Sequence record: NC_000866.4
Direction: 5' to 3' (one strand)
Origin: Escherichia phage T4
Length of the DNA: 64,000 nucleotides
Shown here: positions 16,677-51,853 of the stretch, in pieces
How the letters are laid out: every line of letters starts with the position of its first letter
Position numbering within the stretch: position 1 is the first letter of the stretch
Notes under the pieces: model-generated
Told to the model about the DNA's origin: nothing
Seen by the model: the letters and a program-made list of their open reading frames with translations, nothing else
The model's database searches: none
Position numbers and translations under genes: made by a program

Positions 16677-18440
16677 ATGGATATTAAAGTACATTTTCAC
16701 GACTTCAGTCATGTACGCATCGATTGTGAAGAGAGCACGTTCCACGAATTAAGAGATTTCTTTTCGTTTGAGGCCGATGGATATAGATTTAATCCTCGCT
16801 TCAGATATGGCAACTGGGATGGACGAATCCGTCTTTTAGATTATAATCGTCTTCTTCCATTCGGCTTAGTCGGGCAAATTAAAAAATTCTGTGATAATTT
16901 TGGCTATAAAGCCTGGATTGACCCACAAATTAACGAAAAAGAAGAATTATCAAGAAAAGATTTTGATGAATGGCTTTCTAAATTAGAAATCTATTCAGGA
17001 AATAAAAGAATTGAACCGCACTGGTATCAAAAAGATGCAGTGTTCGAAGGATTAGTTAATCGTCGTAGAATTCTTAATCTTCCAACATCTGCAGGTAAAT
17101 CTTTAATTCAAGCTTTGCTTGCGCGATATTATTTGGAAAATTATGAAGGTAAAATTCTTATCATTGTTCCAACAACTGCTCTGACAACTCAGATGGCTGA
17201 TGACTTCGTCGACTATCGTTTATTCAGCCATGCAATGATAAAGAAAATTGGTGGCGGAGCATCAAAAGATGATAAATATAAAAATGATGCACCAGTCGTT
17301 GTTGGTACATGGCAAACTGTAGTAAAACAACCGAAAGAATGGTTCTCACAGTTTGGAATGATGATGAATGATGAATGCCATCTTGCTACAGGAAAAAGTA
17401 TTTCATCTATCATATCAGGTTTAAATAACTGCATGTTCAAATTCGGTTTGTCTGGTTCATTACGTGATGGCAAAGCCAATATCATGCAGTATGTTGGAAT
17501 GTTTGGTGAAATATTTAAACCAGTAACGACTTCTAAATTAATGGAAGATGGACAAGTAACTGAGCTAAAAATTAATAGTATTTTTCTTCGCTATCCCGAT
17601 GAGTTCACTACTAAATTAAAGGGAAAAACTTACCAAGAAGAAATAAAAATTATTACTGGGCTTAGTAAAAGAAATAAATGGATCGCTAAATTAGCTATTA
17701 AGCTTGCGCAAAAAGATGAAAACGCTTTTGTCATGTTTAAACATGTATCGCATGGTAAAGCTATTTTCGATTTAATTAAAAATGAATACGATAAAGTTTA
17801 TTACGTATCAGGGGAAGTTGATACCGAAACCCGCAATATAATGAAAACCTTAGCTGAAAATGGTAAAGGAATAATTATAGTAGCTAGTTATGGTGTATTT
17901 TCTACTGGTATTTCAGTTAAAAATCTGCATCACGTTGTTTTAGCGCACGGTGTTAAATCAAAAATCATTGTATTACAAACAATCGGTCGTGTATTACGTA
18001 AGCATGGTTCTAAGACAATAGCAACAGTCTGGGACCTCATAGATAGCGCAGGCGTCAAGCCAAAATCTGCTAATACGAAAAAGAAATATGTTCATTTGAA
18101 CTATCTTTTAAAACACGGCATTGATCGTATTCAGCGCTACGCAGATGAAAAATTTAATTACGTAATGAAAACAGTTAATTTAATAAGCTTCGGCCCTTTG
18201 GAGAAAAAGATGTTACTAGAATTTAAACAATTTCTTTATGAAGCTTCTATTGATGAATTTATGGGTAAAATTGCCTCTTGTCAAACATTAGAAGGTTTAG
18301 AAGAACTTGAAGCTTATTATAAGAAAAGAGTCAAAGAAACTGAATTAAAAGATACTGATGACATCTCTGTGAGAGATGCTTTGGCAGGAAAAAGAGCTGA
18401 ATTAGAAGATTCAGACGATGAAGTAGAAGAAAGCTTTTAA
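16677..18440 (+). CDS. uvsW: SF2 DNA/RNA helicase
   Basis: 587-aa ORF with Walker A (PTSAGKS) and DECH box; matches full-length T4 UvsW. Confidence 0.94.
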   Translation: MDIKVHFHDFSHVRIDCEESTFHELRDFFSFEADGYRFNPRFRYGNWDGRIRLLDYNRLLPFGLVGQIKKFCDNFGYKAWIDPQINEKEELSRKDFDEWLSKLEIYSGNKRIEPHWYQKDAVFEGLVNRRRILNLPTSAGKSLIQALLARYYLENYEGKILIIVPTTALTTQMADDFVDYRLFSHAMIKKIGGGASKDDKYKNDAPVVVGTWQTVVKQPKEWFSQFGMMMNDECHLATGKSISSIISGLNNCMFKFGLSGSLRDGKANIMQYVGMFGEIFKPVTTSKLMEDGQVTELKINSIFLRYPDEFTTKLKGKTYQEEIKIITGLSKRNKWIAKLAIKLAQKDENAFVMFKHVSHGKAIFDLIKNEYDKVYYVSGEVDTETRNIMKTLAENGKGIIIVASYGVFSTGISVKNLHHVVLAHGVKSKIIVLQTIGRVLRKHGSKTIATVWDLIDSAGVKPKSANTKKKYVHLNYLLKHGIDRIQRYADEKFNYVMKTVNLISFGPLEKKMLLEFKQFLYEASIDEFMGKIASCQTLEGLEELEAYYKKRVKETELKDTDDISVRDALAGKRAELEDSDDEVEESF

Positions 18441-18472
18441 ATTAAAAAAGGCCCAACCAAAAAGGAAGGGCC
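18440..18472 (-). terminator. Terminator-like hairpin after the small ORF downstream of uvsY
   Basis: Minus strand GGCCC...GGGCC stem with 13-nt loop followed by UUUUUUAAUUU. Confidence 0.5.
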
Positions 18473-18495
18473 AAAACTATAGACTAAAGGTCACA

Positions 18496-18663
18496 CTATA
18501 GCAAAAGTTGTGTTTCATTTAATTGTTCTTCCGAACTTTCTGAAACTGGTAGTTCTTTAATGTAATTATAGCAAGGCCCAGGATGTACAGGACCTTTGTC
18601 TGTTTCAACAACCAATGCAGAATCGATTGGAGTTTTACAGACAACACAAATCTTATCTGACAT
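18496..18663 (-). CDS. Small Cys-containing protein (55 aa), uvsY.-2-like by position
   Basis: ATG-initiated ORF below the ORF-track cutoff, translated by hand (MSDKICVVCKTPIDSALVVETDKGPVHPGPC...); followed on the minus strand by a hairpin and U-tract. Confidence 0.5.
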   Translation of the reverse strand: MSDKICVVCKTPIDSALVVETDKGPVHPGPCYNYIKELPVSESSEEQLNETQLLL

Positions 18664-18689
18664 GATTGTCTCCTCTGAATTATATCTAT

Positions 18690-18914
18690 TTATACAACTC
18701 TCATATGCATATCAATGCCCATATCTTTAGAATAAAAATATTCATCAAGATATCCGGCAAATTTTCCTTTAATATAAAGGACATCTTCACCACACGGGTG
18801 GTCGGCCAGGATACGAATATCCTGACGCTTAAGATTATGCTTTTTCATTAAGAATTGAATTTCCGTTTCAAATTCTTCTTCATAATTAAAAGCATCATCA
18901 ATGCTATATCTCAT
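18690..18914 (-). CDS. uvsY.-1: Hypothetical protein
   Basis: 74-aa ORF immediately downstream of uvsY on the minus strand with overlapping stop/start; name by synteny. Confidence 0.7.
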   Translation of the reverse strand: MRYSIDDAFNYEEEFETEIQFLMKKHNLKRQDIRILADHPCGEDVLYIKGKFAGYLDEYFYSKDMGIDMHMRVV

Positions 18915-19327
18915 TATTTTCCAGCCTCAAATGCTCGCATGTCTTGAATATGCTTAATAGCAAATCCACGTGATTTAATAGCATCAAGAGCTCCGCTACA
19001 GAAATCTAATAAAATCCCCCAATACTGCAACGAGGTATCAACCTTTAAAACATCCTTATCCGCTGATAGAACTGTCTTCATTTCTGATTTCTCGTAACGA
19101 TCCATACTAAATTCATCACCATCTCCTCGTCCCGAGTAGTAGTCTAATCTAGCTTTAAGAGCAACTTTTTTCTGTGCTTCAATTCTAAGCATTTCCTTTT
19201 TAATACTTGAATGCTTATTAAGCCATTTACTATATAACATCACATTATTAGCTGCTTCATACTGTAATTTAGTCGAATCTATAAACACATCTTTCTTCAA
19301 TTCTTCTTGAAGATCTTCTAATCTCAT
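18914..19327 (-). CDS. uvsY: Recombination mediator protein
   Basis: 137-aa ORF beginning MRLEDLQEEL, recognised as T4 UvsY; MotA-type middle promoter upstream. Confidence 0.95.
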   Translation of the reverse strand: MRLEDLQEELKKDVFIDSTKLQYEAANNVMLYSKWLNKHSSIKKEMLRIEAQKKVALKARLDYYSGRGDGDEFSMDRYEKSEMKTVLSADKDVLKVDTSLQYWGILLDFCSGALDAIKSRGFAIKHIQDMRAFEAGK

Positions 19328-19377
19328 ATTGTTCTCTATTCAATTGTTATTGGTTGTTATTGGATGGACTTAGATTC

Positions 19378-19405
19378 ATTATACCACGTTTTAACGTGAA
19401 GCATT
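19378..19405 (-). promoter_or_regulatory. MotA-dependent middle promoter for uvsY
   Basis: Minus strand AATGCTTCA (MotA box) - 13 nt - TATAAT, about 50 nt upstream of the uvsY ATG. Confidence 0.65.
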
Positions 19406-19802
19406 ATACTCTATTACTGGAAGCCAGCTGCAGTTTTATCTGCTCAATATCATCAGGATTATCGATGACCGAAAAGCGTATTTCTACTATCAGAGTATAA
19501 TCGTCATAAACGGGTATCACATTAACTGCTAATTTATCAATACGTGGCTCATAGTTTCTTACTGCGCTTTCGATATTGCGTTCAACCGTGTCAGCAGTAA
19601 GAGGAGTCATATTTTCAAAAAGCTGGTCTGATAAATCACATCCAAATTCAGGGTCAAACGGTCTTGAACCTTTTCTTGTTGTAATAATTCCCAAAAGACT
19701 GTTTTTAATTGACCTTAATCCAAGCGATCTGGAAACGTCTTTGTTCCAATCCATTTTCATTTCCGGGTCAATATCAGAATAAAGCTTATTAATATTTGCC
19801 AT
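19404..19802 (-). CDS. 25: Baseplate wedge protein
   Basis: 132-aa ORF; T4 gp25 length and position. Confidence 0.92.
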   Translation of the reverse strand: MANINKLYSDIDPEMKMDWNKDVSRSLGLRSIKNSLLGIITTRKGSRPFDPEFGCDLSDQLFENMTPLTADTVERNIESAVRNYEPRIDKLAVNVIPVYDDYTLIVEIRFSVIDNPDDIEQIKLQLASSNRV

Positions 19803-20428
19803 TATAGTAACTCAAAGAACTCTTTGAGGCCTCTTATTACGTGAGCATGGGTTTTTCCACACTCTGGACACTTAATTGGAACAGCCAAATAAACGGTAGG
19901 CTTTAAAAGCATATCTTTTATAGCTACAATATCTGACTCTGTGATGATAGAATATAAATCTTCTAGTTCCTTTTCATTTAAGTCTTCAACTGGAATGCTT
20001 TCCCCGTTAGCATGAATCGTTTCTATACATGATACTATCATGTGGGCTATATTTTTATCATCAAAAATTTTAGGGTATCGGAATTTAATTTTAATGTCAC
20101 CTAGTGTATACCAGAGGTCTTCTGGTGCATCTATTTGTGTATGTAATAGATTTATATGGGTTGGTATTTCAGTTCCACAGGTGCACTTCCAGGAGTTTTC
20201 GTGATTAACTTCACCGAGAGAATGTGCCCATAAATGAATCAACAATAGTTCTGATTCTTGGCGGTTTAAATCTTTTGCATTTGTGCAGTCTTTGATTAGC
20301 TTTTTAACAATTACTTCTACGGAACCATTATTTTTGGCAGTAATAAGTTCTAGATATTCTTTAAGCGTGAATGCGCGACAATTGATTATTTTAGAACCAA
20401 CTCTCACATCAAATTTGTATTCATACAT
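19802..20428 (-). CDS. 26: Baseplate hub protein
   Basis: 208-aa ORF; T4 gp26 length and position; TATAAATA on minus strand upstream. Confidence 0.9.
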
Positions 20429-50947: not shown

Positions 50948-51853
50948 TTAAAGGTCATTCAAAAGGTCATCCAGGTCCGTGTCATCAGCACTAGATGAAC
51001 TACCAGAGCTTGAGCTCATAAAATCATCTTCAGTTTTTGTATTGAAGTCATCAACATTGAATGCATCCAAATCATCAGCCACTTTATCAGCTTTCTTAGC
51101 AGCAGTTGCAGCAGCACCGCCCATCACAGCAGTTCCCATAACTTGACCGAATTTAGTATTAAGTTCTTCAAACGATTTGAATTTATCTTTAGAAGTCATT
51201 TCAGAAAGGTCAACCATTTGTTCGAACAGTTCTTTCTGGAAAGATTCATCGTCAATGTTTGGAATCGCAGATTGATTCAGGAATTTAGATTCATCGTAGT
51301 TACTAAATCCAGAAACTTGTTTAACTTTCAGTACAAAGTTAGCACCTTCCCACGGACAAGTTACATCAACTGGAGTTTCACCCATTTCAACATCAACCGC
51401 AATCATTGCATTGATTTTATCCCAGATTTTCTTACCAAAGCGGTATTTAAATACTTTACCTTCGTTTTCTGGAGCAGCTGGGTCTTTTACTACAAGAATG
51501 TTAGCCCAGTAAGAAGTTTTACGTTTAACAAGACTGTACTCTTTATTGTCAGTGTTGTATAGATCATTTTTACTGATGTATTGACATACTGGGCAAGAAT
51601 CGTAATCACCATGGGTAGATGAACATGTTTCAATATACCATTTACCATTTTTCTTGAAACCGTGATTTACAAGAATTGCGAATGGTGCTTGTTCATCATT
51701 TTTAGACGGAAGAAAACGAATTACTGCTTGACCGTTACCCGCATTATCGAGTTTCAGTTTCCACTCGCCTTTATCTTCAGAAGAAAAACCTTTATTGCCA
51801 TTCAGTTTAGCCATTTGTGCAGCGAGTTCAGCAGTAGATTTACGTTTAAACAT
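50948..51853 (-). CDS. 32: Single-stranded DNA-binding protein
   Basis: 301-aa ORF with zinc site ([14 protein letters not shown]) and acidic C-terminus; recognised as T4 gp32. Confidence 0.97.

What the first reader, a model, noticed from the sequence alone, without database searches (positions are those of the whole stretch)
18496..18663. Unlisted 55-aa Cys-containing ORF with its own terminator downstream of uvsY
Below the ORF-track length cutoff but ATG-initiated, with CxxC...HxxxC spacing suggestive of a small zinc-binding protein, and followed by a hairpin and U-tract.
Basis: seen in the sequence. Interest (0 to 1): 0.25.

Follow-up and report, generated by a model that had tools for sequence, protein, structure and literature searches.

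The report
Phage T4 gene uvsY.-2, small zinc-finger protein
The 55-codon reading frame is the already annotated phage T4 gene uvsY.-2 (Pfam DUF2685), a real, conserved and translated small protein that looks like a zinc finger with an acidic docking tail, but whose biochemical job is still unknown.

Summary
The window is phage T4 (reference coordinates 96001-160000). The minus-strand ORF 18496..18663 is T4 gene uvsY.-2, annotated as a hypothetical protein in T4 records, a full-length Pfam DUF2685 and phrog_1043 match.

It is a genuine gene:
- dN/dS is 0.06-0.17 against orthologues.
- There are 79 family clusters at 50% identity, nearly all 51-67 aa.
- Published proteomics lists a protein-level temporal class, and knock-down gives a mild, complementable fitness defect.

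In 74 family representatives Cys6, Cys9 and Cys31 are invariant. His27 is present in 71 and is Cys in the other 3. AlphaFold2 gives a knuckle, hairpin and helix (treble-clef-like) finger, closest to eL24/TRASH/FCS-type fingers, followed by a disordered acidic tail. The tail ends in a conserved motif, L-x-E-[TVI]-[QE]-L-L-[LMI].

The gene has a strong Shine-Dalgarno sequence, a late-promoter consensus TATAAATA upstream, and a hairpin plus U6 downstream that lies between it and the convergent uvsW.1.

Function is unknown. My best guess is a zinc-finger adaptor or regulator that docks through its tail onto a partner in the uvsY/uvsW DNA-metabolism module. My one test, for binding to the gp45 clamp, was uninformative. 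Interest is low.

The parts
18496..18663 (-). uvsY.-2 coding sequence (55 codons plus TAG stop), Pfam DUF2685
   Evidence: ORF list. 100% identical to the annotated uvsY.-2 of T4T. PF10886 at 119 bits against a cut-off of 25. dN/dS 0.06-0.17.
18553..18663 (-). Residues 1-37: predicted CCHC zinc finger. The ligand codons are C6 at 18646-18648, C9 at 18637-18639, H27 at 18583-18585 and C31 at 18571-18573.
18499..18552 (-). Residues 38-55: disordered acidic tail with invariant E42 (18538-18540). It ends in the motif L48-N-E-T-Q-L-L-L55 (18499-18522).
   Evidence: AF2 block pLDDT is about 51. E42 is present in 74/74, and the tail motif is L-x-E-[TVI]-[QE]-L-L-[LMI].
18670..18675 (-). Shine-Dalgarno GAGGAG, 6 nt before the ATG
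   Evidence: Read from the sequence.
18687..18694 (-). T4 late-promoter consensus TATAAATA, overlapping the uvsY.-1 stop codon and starting 31 nt upstream of the ATG
   Evidence: Exact match. The window has 19 matches against 8.4 expected. A TATAAATA also starts 34 nt upstream of the start codon in Acinetobacter phage Lazarus. Promoter activity was not tested.
18444..18472 (-). Intrinsic terminator: stem-loop GGCCC..GGGCC (18472-18450) followed by U6 (18449-18444). It lies between uvsY.-2 and the convergent uvsW.1.
   Evidence: Fold at -16.6 kcal/mol, z = -2.6. Annotated as a rho-independent terminator in Aplg8 at the equivalent position. Hairpins followed by T-runs occupy the same place in Aeromonas, Krischvirus and metagenomic relatives.

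Best explanation
**Shown.** The ORF is phage T4 gene uvsY.-2, the last gene of the uvsY / uvsY.-1 / uvsY.-2 minus-strand gene row. It has a good ribosome-binding site, and a late-promoter consensus lies just upstream. A hairpin plus U6 ends the unit in the gap facing the convergent uvsW.1. The product is a 6-kDa acidic protein that is made during infection.

**Inferred.** Residues 1-37 fold around one zinc ion held by Cys6, Cys9, His27 and Cys31, forming a treble-clef-type finger. This finger is close to neutral (net charge -1), so it is more likely a protein-binding module than a nucleic-acid-binding one. Residues 38-55 are a flexible acidic tail ending in a conserved hydrophobic motif, L-x-E-[TVI]-[QE]-L-L.

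**Proposed mechanism.** UvsY.-2 is a small adaptor or regulator. The tail docks, probably as a short amphipathic helix, onto a conserved partner, while the finger holds a second surface. The partner most likely belongs to T4 DNA metabolism: the UvsY/UvsW/gp32 recombination-dependent replication machinery, or possibly the gp45 clamp. This style of acidic, hydrophobic C-terminal tail is how gp32, gp43, gp33 and gp55 dock onto their partners.

**Confidence.** About 0.97 that it is the real gene uvsY.-2, about 0.8 that it binds zinc, and about 0.3 for the adaptor-in-DNA-metabolism mechanism. The overall figure reflects the mechanism.
For: **Identity**
- 100% nucleotide identity to T4T, where the CDS is annotated uvsY.-2.
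- The coordinates equal T4 reference 114496-114663.
- Full-length matches to PF10886 and phrog_1043.

**Real gene**
- dN/dS is 0.06-0.17.
- 79 clusters at 50% identity, nearly all 51-67 aa.
- Time-resolved proteomics lists uvsY.-2 as RNA class middle, protein class late (PMC9697503).
- CRISPRi-ART scores it 'Semi-Fit'; the main text says complementation recovered EOP and plaque size (PMC11879866). My reading of the source data is plaques about 2-fold smaller.
- The complementing plasmid is named 'sfGFP_linker_T4_uvsY.-2', which suggests the protein tolerates an N-terminal fusion.

**Zinc finger**
- C6, C9 and C31 are present in 74/74 representatives, and H27 in 71/74 with Cys in the other three.
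- The AF2 finger has block pLDDT 82-89.
- A family profile gives a marginal hit to the Vps39 C-terminal zinc finger, E = 0.003.

**Tail motif**
- E42 is present in 74/74, and the terminal motif is as conserved as the ligands.

**Link to recombination genes**
- The gene lies next to uvsW or uvsW.1 in T4, Aeromonas and Krischvirus phages and in a metagenomic contig, and close to uvsW, separated by small ORFs, in the Vibrio and Acinetobacter phages. In the Vibrio phage the other flank is a tail-fibre gene instead of baseplate genes.
- It is kept where uvsY.-1 is absent, in VR7 and JS10.

**Precedent for tail docking**
- The gp43, gp55 and gp33 tails bind gp45 (PMC2988020; sequences).
- UvsW binds the acidic C-terminal tail of gp32 (Perumal et al. 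2013, as summarised in PMC5314882).
Against: - No partner has been identified.
- My fused-chain AF2 test (gp45 + UvsY.-2 + gp45 + gp33 tail) left both tails at pLDDT of about 30. The known binder also failed to dock, so the test says nothing either way.
- The tail motif is a different class from the clamp-binding motif. gp55 tails in about 110 homologues almost always carry an aromatic residue in the motif (mostly L-[DE]-F-L-Y) and drift between lineages. UvsY.-2 tails have an aromatic residue in the last six positions in only 2/74 and stay E-x-Q-L-L.
- gp32 tails (D-L-[DN]-[DA]-L-L-x-x-L) have a different spacing.
- Knock-downs of uvsY, uvsY.-1 and uvsW scored 'Not Fit' in the screen where uvsY.-2 scored 'Semi-Fit'. 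That does not fit a simple helper of those proteins.
- Gene order in T4-like phages is generally conserved, so neighbourhood is weak evidence.
- Matches to zf-FCS, DUF2175 and DUF6757 all fall below Pfam cut-offs.
Confidence: 0.35

Rival explanations
1. UvsY.-2 targets a conserved host protein. It would act as an inhibitor or hijacker in the manner of small zinc-finger-plus-tail inhibitors such as YacG (gyrase) or CsfB/Gin (sigma factor), or as an anti-defence factor, with the invariant tail motif matching a slowly evolving host surface.
For: - The tail motif stays nearly constant across phages of Escherichia, Klebsiella, Acinetobacter, Vibrio and Aeromonas, while phage partner motifs such as the gp55 tail drift.
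- No cyanophage genus appears among the ten commonest organism names for UvsY.-2 matches. T4-like cyanophages are numerous among gp32 matches (Synechococcus 378, Cyanophage 61).
- Knock-down hurts more than knock-down of the neighbouring recombination genes.
- The CRISPRi-ART authors suggest anti-defence roles for such genes.
Against: - No host partner is known.
- The gene is expressed middle to late rather than immediately, whereas most T4 host-takeover proteins are early.
- The last residues resemble the host beta-clamp motif QL[SD]LF only loosely, and 17 of 74 members end at ...Q-L-L, which is too short for that motif (the motif is from my own knowledge).
Confidence: 0.3
2. UvsY.-2 is a ligand of the gp45 sliding clamp. 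Its acidic, hydrophobic C-terminus ([TVI]-[QE]-L-L-[LMI]) occupies the same pocket as the tails of gp43, gp33 and gp55. It would either tether the zinc finger to loaded clamps or compete with polymerase and late-transcription factors.
For: - The T4 gp33 tail NTLDFLL and the UvsY.-2 tail NETQLLL share a pattern: hydrophobic, acidic or polar, hydrophobic, L, hydrophobic, at the extreme C-terminus.
- The architecture is the same as gp55: a folded body, a variable acidic linker, then a conserved terminal motif (PMC2988020).
- There is a late-promoter consensus upstream, and the protein accumulates late.
Against: - Clamp-binding tails almost always contain Phe or another aromatic in about 110 gp55 homologues. 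UvsY.-2 tails do so in 2/74.
- The two motifs do not co-vary between lineages.
- The AF2 docking attempt was uninformative because the gp33 control also failed.
Confidence: 0.1
3. The ORF is a chance reading frame or a non-coding spacer between uvsY.-1 and the terminator.
For: It is short (55 codons), and some annotated relatives omit it (for example Aplg8).
Against: - dN/dS is 0.06-0.17.
- It gives a full-length Pfam family match.
- Conserved homologues exist down to 42% identity in five or more genera.
- There is a strong Shine-Dalgarno sequence.
- Proteomics lists a protein-level temporal class, and knock-down gives a complementable phenotype.
Confidence: 0.01

Closest known systems
Phage T4 gene uvsY.-2 (T4p185; UniProt Q00778; Pfam PF10886 DUF2685; phrog_1043)
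   Same: It is this gene. The sequence is 100% identical, in the same position between uvsY.-1 and uvsW.1, and matches the family model over its full length.
   Different: Nothing differs. Public annotation says only 'hypothetical protein'. The zinc-finger-plus-tail reading is an interpretation added here.
TRASH / FCS (MYM) / eL24-type treble-clef zinc fingers
   Same: - A CxxC knuckle, a beta-hairpin, and a second ligand pair at the start of a helix.
- Ligand spacing C-x2-C-x17-H-x3-C, against C-x2-C-x19-22-C-x3-C for TRASH (the TRASH spacing is from my own knowledge).
   Different: - The third ligand is His, not Cys.
- Sequence matches to zf-FCS are below the Pfam cut-off (16 bits against 22).
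- The finger is close to neutral (net charge -1) in a strongly acidic protein. eL24 is a basic RNA-binding protein (from my own knowledge).
Vps39 C-terminal zinc finger (PDB 6ZE9; Pfam zf-Vps39_C)
   Same: This is the best sequence-level match among solved structures. The shared pattern is C-x-V-C-K-K/Q-x-I ... G-V-V-H-x-x-C (profile E = 0.003). 11 of 74 members give weak zf-Vps39_C hits.
   Different: The match is marginal and below family thresholds. The protein is eukaryotic and belongs to a large tethering complex, and there is no equivalent of the acidic tail.
Acidic, hydrophobic C-terminal docking tails of T4 gp43, gp33 and gp55 (bind the gp45 clamp) and of gp32 (binds UvsW among other T4 replication and recombination proteins)
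   Same: A disordered acidic linker of variable length, followed by a short conserved hydrophobic motif at the very C-terminus.
   Different: The motif itself is distinct. UvsY.-2 has E-[TVI]-[QE]-L-L. Clamp binders have L-D-F-L-[FYL], and gp32 has D-L-[DN]-x-L-L-x-x-L. Binding to any of their partners is untested.
YacG (E. coli gyrase inhibitor) and CsfB/Gin (anti-sigma-G): small zinc-finger-plus-tail protein inhibitors

Membership tests
T4 uvsY.-2 / Pfam DUF2685 (PF10886) | Full-length match to the family HMM above the gathering score | tested here: met
   119 bits against a cut-off of 25, residues 3-55 on profile positions 1-55. phrog_1043 E = 3.9e-31. All 74 relatives match PF10886.
T4 uvsY.-2 / Pfam DUF2685 (PF10886) | Same locus as the annotated T4 gene, downstream of uvsY and uvsY.-1 and convergent with uvsW.1 | tested here: met
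   100% identity to T4T, where the CDS is annotated uvsY.-2. The equivalent gene lies beside or near uvsW in five other lineages.
Zinc finger, treble-clef type (TRASH / FCS / eL24-like) | Four conserved Cys/His ligands in a 2 + 2 arrangement | tested here: met
   C6, C9 and C31 are present in 74/74. H27 is present in 71/74 and is Cys in the other three.
Zinc finger, treble-clef type (TRASH / FCS / eL24-like) | Knuckle, beta-hairpin and helix topology, with the second ligand pair at the helix N-terminus | tested here: met
Zinc finger, treble-clef type (TRASH / FCS / eL24-like) | Sequence match to a curated zinc-finger family above threshold | tested here: not met
   zf-FCS, zf-Vps39_C, DUF2175 and DUF6757 give only sub-threshold matches. 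The PDB profile hit to the Vps39 finger has E = 0.003.
Zinc finger, treble-clef type (TRASH / FCS / eL24-like) | Stoichiometric zinc binding | not testable with these tools
   This needs a metal analysis of purified protein.
Rho-independent (intrinsic) terminator | G+C-rich stem-loop immediately followed by a U-tract on the transcribed strand | tested here: met
   GGCCC..GGGCC plus U6 at 18472..18444, with z = -2.6. Annotated as a terminator in Aplg8. Analogous hairpins occur in relatives. The consensus scan missed it because its loop limit is 8 nt. Termination activity was not tested.
T4 late promoter | TATAAATA box at about -10 of a transcript start | tested here: inconclusive
   There is an exact TATAAATA at 18694..18687, starting 31 nt upstream of the ATG. 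About 8 of the 19 matches in the window are expected by chance. No 5'-end data were examined. The published expression class is RNA 'middle', protein 'late'.
gp45 sliding-clamp-binding motif (tails of gp43, gp33, gp55) | C-terminal [ST]-L-[DE]-F-L-[FYL]-type motif containing an aromatic residue | tested here: not met
   gp55 homologues almost always carry an aromatic residue in the motif. UvsY.-2 tails have an aromatic residue in the last six positions in 2/74 and read E-[TVI]-[QE]-L-L.
gp45 sliding-clamp-binding motif (tails of gp43, gp33, gp55) | Physical docking of the tail on gp45 | tested here: inconclusive
   In the fused-chain AF2 model the UvsY.-2 tail block had pLDDT 30, and the gp33 tail positive control had 31. 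The assay therefore failed.

The most novel reading that the evidence does not exclude
UvsY.-2 is an unrecognised component of T4 recombination-dependent replication or late transcription. It would be a zinc-finger adaptor whose invariant C-terminal E-x-Q-L-L helix binds a hub protein. Candidates are the gp32-tail-binding site of UvsW or UvsY, or the gp45 clamp. Through that contact it would tune the switch from origin-dependent to recombination-dependent replication. That would explain why the gene stays with uvsY and uvsW across Straboviridae and why its knock-down reduces plaque size.
Probability: 0.2. Interest if true: 0.5.

Novelty: already known. Interest (0 to 1): 0.2.

Why it matters
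T4 is a very thoroughly studied phage, yet a large share of its genes still have no known function. uvsY.-2 is one of the few such genes with a measurable, complementable fitness effect (PMC11879866). It is conserved across phages of many gamma-proteobacterial hosts. The domain reading given here, a CCHC zinc finger plus a conserved C-terminal docking motif, yields concrete and cheap experiments: ligand and tail mutants in the existing complementation assay, and a peptide pull-down. As a scan result, however, it only rediscovers an annotated gene.

Tried and rejected
- **AF2 docking test.** The fused chain was gp45, linker, UvsY.-2, linker, gp45, linker, then the last 30 residues of gp33, using a 19-row concatenated alignment. 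Both tails stayed at pLDDT of about 30, including the gp33 positive control. The test is uninformative.
- **Clamp-binding motif comparison.** The gp55 tails of about 110 homologues form a distinct, aromatic motif class. I rejected membership, though binding is not excluded.
- **gp32-tail mimicry.** The gp32 tails from six lineages share an acidic run followed by Leu-Leu but have different spacing. This remains unresolved.
- **Rosetta-stone clue.** A natural 126-aa fusion (P0034, L007) lies between uvsY and uvsW.1. Its N-terminal 72 residues show no similarity to T4 UvsY.-1 or to any Pfam family, so it gave no functional clue.
- **Sequence search of PDB with the single protein.** Only noise came back, from lysostaphin repeats and Mlc.
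- **BFVD fold search.** It returned only uncharacterised family members and weak RING, MYM or TRASH hits.
- **Rfam, E up to 1, on 17500-20000.** Nothing was found.
- **Literature.** 'DUF2685' returned no papers, and 'uvsY.-2' returned two. Miller et al. 2003 is not held.
- **T4 reference records.** The accessions NC_000866 and AF158101 are not in the phage collection, so T4T was used instead.

Full report
**What the window is.** The region 18400-18950 is 100% identical to phage T4T and 95% or more identical to about 500 T4-type phages. The coordinates in a published T4 gene table (uvsW 112677-114440, uvsY.-2 114496-114663) place the window at T4 reference positions 96001-160000. In the T4T record the genes here run segE, uvsW, uvsW.1 on the plus strand, then uvsY.-2, uvsY.-1, uvsY, 25 and 26 on the minus strand.

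**Checking the observation.**
- The minus-strand ORF at 18496..18663 starts with ATG and encodes 55 residues: MSDKICVVCKTPIDSALVVETDKGPVHPGPCYNYIKELPVSESSEEQLNETQLLL.
- The pattern C6-x2-C9 ... H27-x3-C31 is present.
- A Shine-Dalgarno GAGGAG (18675..18670) lies 6 nt before the ATG.
- 24 nt after the stop codon the minus strand reads GGCCCUUCCUUUUUGGUUGGGCC UUUUUU (18472..18444). It folds at -16.6 kcal/mol with z = -2.6.
- The consensus terminator scan reported nothing, because it allows loops of only 3-8 nt.
- Phage Aplg8, 99% identical, annotates a rho-independent terminator on this strand at the equivalent of 18439..18472.
- In Aeromonas, Krischvirus and a metagenomic relative, a canonical hairpin followed by a T-run occupies the same gap between the uvsY.-2 homologue and the convergent uvsW.1.

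**It is a real gene.**
- The protein matches Pfam DUF2685 over its whole length (119 bits, cut-off 25) and phrog_1043.
- tblastn finds it in 1,256 phage records, from Escherichia, Klebsiella, Shigella, Acinetobacter, Vibrio, Aeromonas and others.
- An exhaustive profile search finds 79 clusters at 50% identity, nearly all 51-67 residues long.
- Against orthologues in Mosigvirus, Gaprivervirus and Dhakavirus, dN/dS is 0.06-0.17, and differences from T4 fall mostly at third codon positions.
- A time-resolved T4 omics study lists uvsY.-2 with RNA class 'middle' and protein class 'late' (PMC9697503).
- In the source data the titre on the knock-down strain is within 2-fold of the control, and plaques are roughly half the control size.
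- The complementing plasmid is named 'sfGFP_linker_T4_uvsY.-2'. This suggests an N-terminal fusion is tolerated.

**Anatomy of the protein.**
- In 74 family representatives, C6, C9, C31 and E42 are invariant, and K10 is present in 73.
- H27 is present in 71 and is Cys in the other three. A His-to-Cys swap at one position is what a metal ligand would show.
- AlphaFold2 on a diverse 11-sequence alignment gives mean pLDDT 76, with block values of 82-89 for residues 1-40 and about 51 for the tail.
- The model has a CxxC knuckle, strands 19-21 and 24-26, and helix 30-37. That is a treble-clef arrangement.
- A family profile against PDB sequences gives one marginal hit, the Vps39 C-terminal zinc finger (E = 0.003).
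- Weak sub-threshold Pfam matches (DUF2175, DUF6757, zf-Vps39_C, zf-FCS) cover only the finger.
- The finger has net charge -1, the tail -4, and the family median for the whole protein is -6. This argues against a nucleic-acid-binding role like that of eL24.

**The tail.** The last residues form a motif as conserved as the ligands: L(56/74)-x-E(57)-[T/V/I](67)-[Q/E](62)-L(60)-L(63)-[L/M/I or end]. It is joined to the finger by a variable acidic linker that contains the invariant E42 within an L-x-E-S motif. This is the hallmark of a short docking motif.

**Expression signals.** An exact T4 late-promoter box, TATAAATA, lies at 18694..18687, starting 31 nt upstream of the ATG and overlapping the uvsY.-1 stop codon. 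The window holds 19 such boxes against 8.4 expected. Acinetobacter phage Lazarus also has a TATAAATA box, starting 34 nt upstream of its uvsY.-2 start codon. I did not test promoter activity.

**Genomic context.** The gene lies beside uvsW.1 or uvsW in T4, Aeromonas 44RR2.8t and avDM10, Krischvirus MIZ3 and a metagenomic contig. In Vibrio D481 one small ORF, and in Acinetobacter Lazarus several ORFs, separate it from uvsW. In the Vibrio phage the upstream flank is a tail-fibre gene rather than baseplate genes, yet uvsY, uvsY.-2 and uvsW remain together. VR7 and JS10 keep uvsY.-2 without uvsY.-1. One metagenomic phage encodes a 126-aa fusion whose C-terminal half is DUF2685. Its N-terminal 72 residues resemble nothing, including T4 UvsY.-1.

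**Looking for the partner.** Three known T4 tails that bind the gp45 clamp end in ...ASLDFLFG (gp43)...PSLDFLYEAND (gp55) and ...NTLDFLL (gp33) (PMC2988020). UvsY.-2 ends in ...NETQLLL.

I tested clamp docking with a fused-chain AlphaFold2 model that included the gp33 tail as a positive control. Both tails stayed at pLDDT of about 30, so the test is uninformative.

Comparative evidence argues against simple membership in the clamp-binding class. In about 110 gp55 homologues the motif almost always keeps an aromatic residue (LDFLY, LEQFY, LDNFY, LEKFI) and drifts between lineages. UvsY.-2 tails almost never have an aromatic residue and stay E-x-Q-L-L.

gp32 tails ([26 protein letters not shown]) are acidic with a Leu-Leu pair, as the UvsY.-2 tail is, but the spacing differs. 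UvsW is reported to bind the gp32 acidic tail (Perumal et al. 2013, as summarised in PMC5314882). That keeps a gp32-tail-like docking on UvsW or UvsY as an open possibility.

**Conclusion.** The finding rediscovers an annotated T4 gene. The function remains unknown.

My preferred model, at about 0.3, is a zinc-finger adaptor or regulator that docks through its C-terminal motif onto a partner in the uvsY/uvsW/gp32 or clamp machinery. A conserved host target is about equally likely. It would better explain the constancy of the motif and why knock-down of uvsY.-2 had a larger effect than knock-down of uvsY or uvsW in the same screen.

Novelty: already known. Interest: low.

Noticed in passing
window 16677-18440 (+), differences at 18045-18046 and 18182-18186: The window carries a single 587-codon uvsW ORF, whereas T4T annotates UvsW (503 aa) and UvsW.1 (76 aa) separately. 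The two sequences differ by an AG/GA swap at 18045-18046 and small indels at 18182-18186. The fused ORF therefore reflects the older T4 reference sequence rather than a real fusion.
   Followed up: partly
L019 (phage Aplg8, KT184308.1) 140-392, equivalent to window about 18439-18690: This 99%-identical record annotates the terminator and uvsY.-1 but has no CDS for uvsY.-2. Some deposited annotations therefore miss this conserved 55-codon gene.
   Followed up: no
L007 487-867 (metagenomic contig SRR24752792_27035): A 126-aa protein fuses an unrelated 72-residue N-terminal segment to a DUF2685 domain (phrog_26998). It occupies the slot of uvsY.-1 plus uvsY.-2, between uvsY and uvsW.1.
   Followed up: partly
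L003 2004-2474 and L004 1912-2325 (Aeromonas 44RR2.8t, Vibrio D481): In these phages an ORF of 137-156 aa, in phrog_1460 (labelled 'tRNA amidotransferase'), sits upstream of uvsY.-2, directly in 44RR2.8t and one small ORF away in D481, where T4 has uvsY.-1. Its real function and its relation to the module were not examined.
   Followed up: no
L011 and L012 (phages VR7 and JS10): uvsY.-1 is absent, with a gap of about 130 nt between uvsY and uvsY.-2, while uvsY.-2 is retained. uvsY.-2 is therefore the more widely conserved of the two small genes.
   Followed up: no
window 50948-51853 (-), gene 32: A scan for ORFs of at least 45 aa with an acidic C-terminal tail ending in a hydrophobic pair picked out only gp32 and UvsY.-2. 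I wrote the pattern with the UvsY.-2 tail in mind, so this is a lead and not a statistic.
   Followed up: partly
window 18477-18501: The palindrome CTATAG occurs twice, 13 nt apart, overlapping the uvsY.-2 stop codon. The two copies pair as a weak second hairpin just upstream of the terminator stem in the MFE fold. It may be chance.
   Followed up: no
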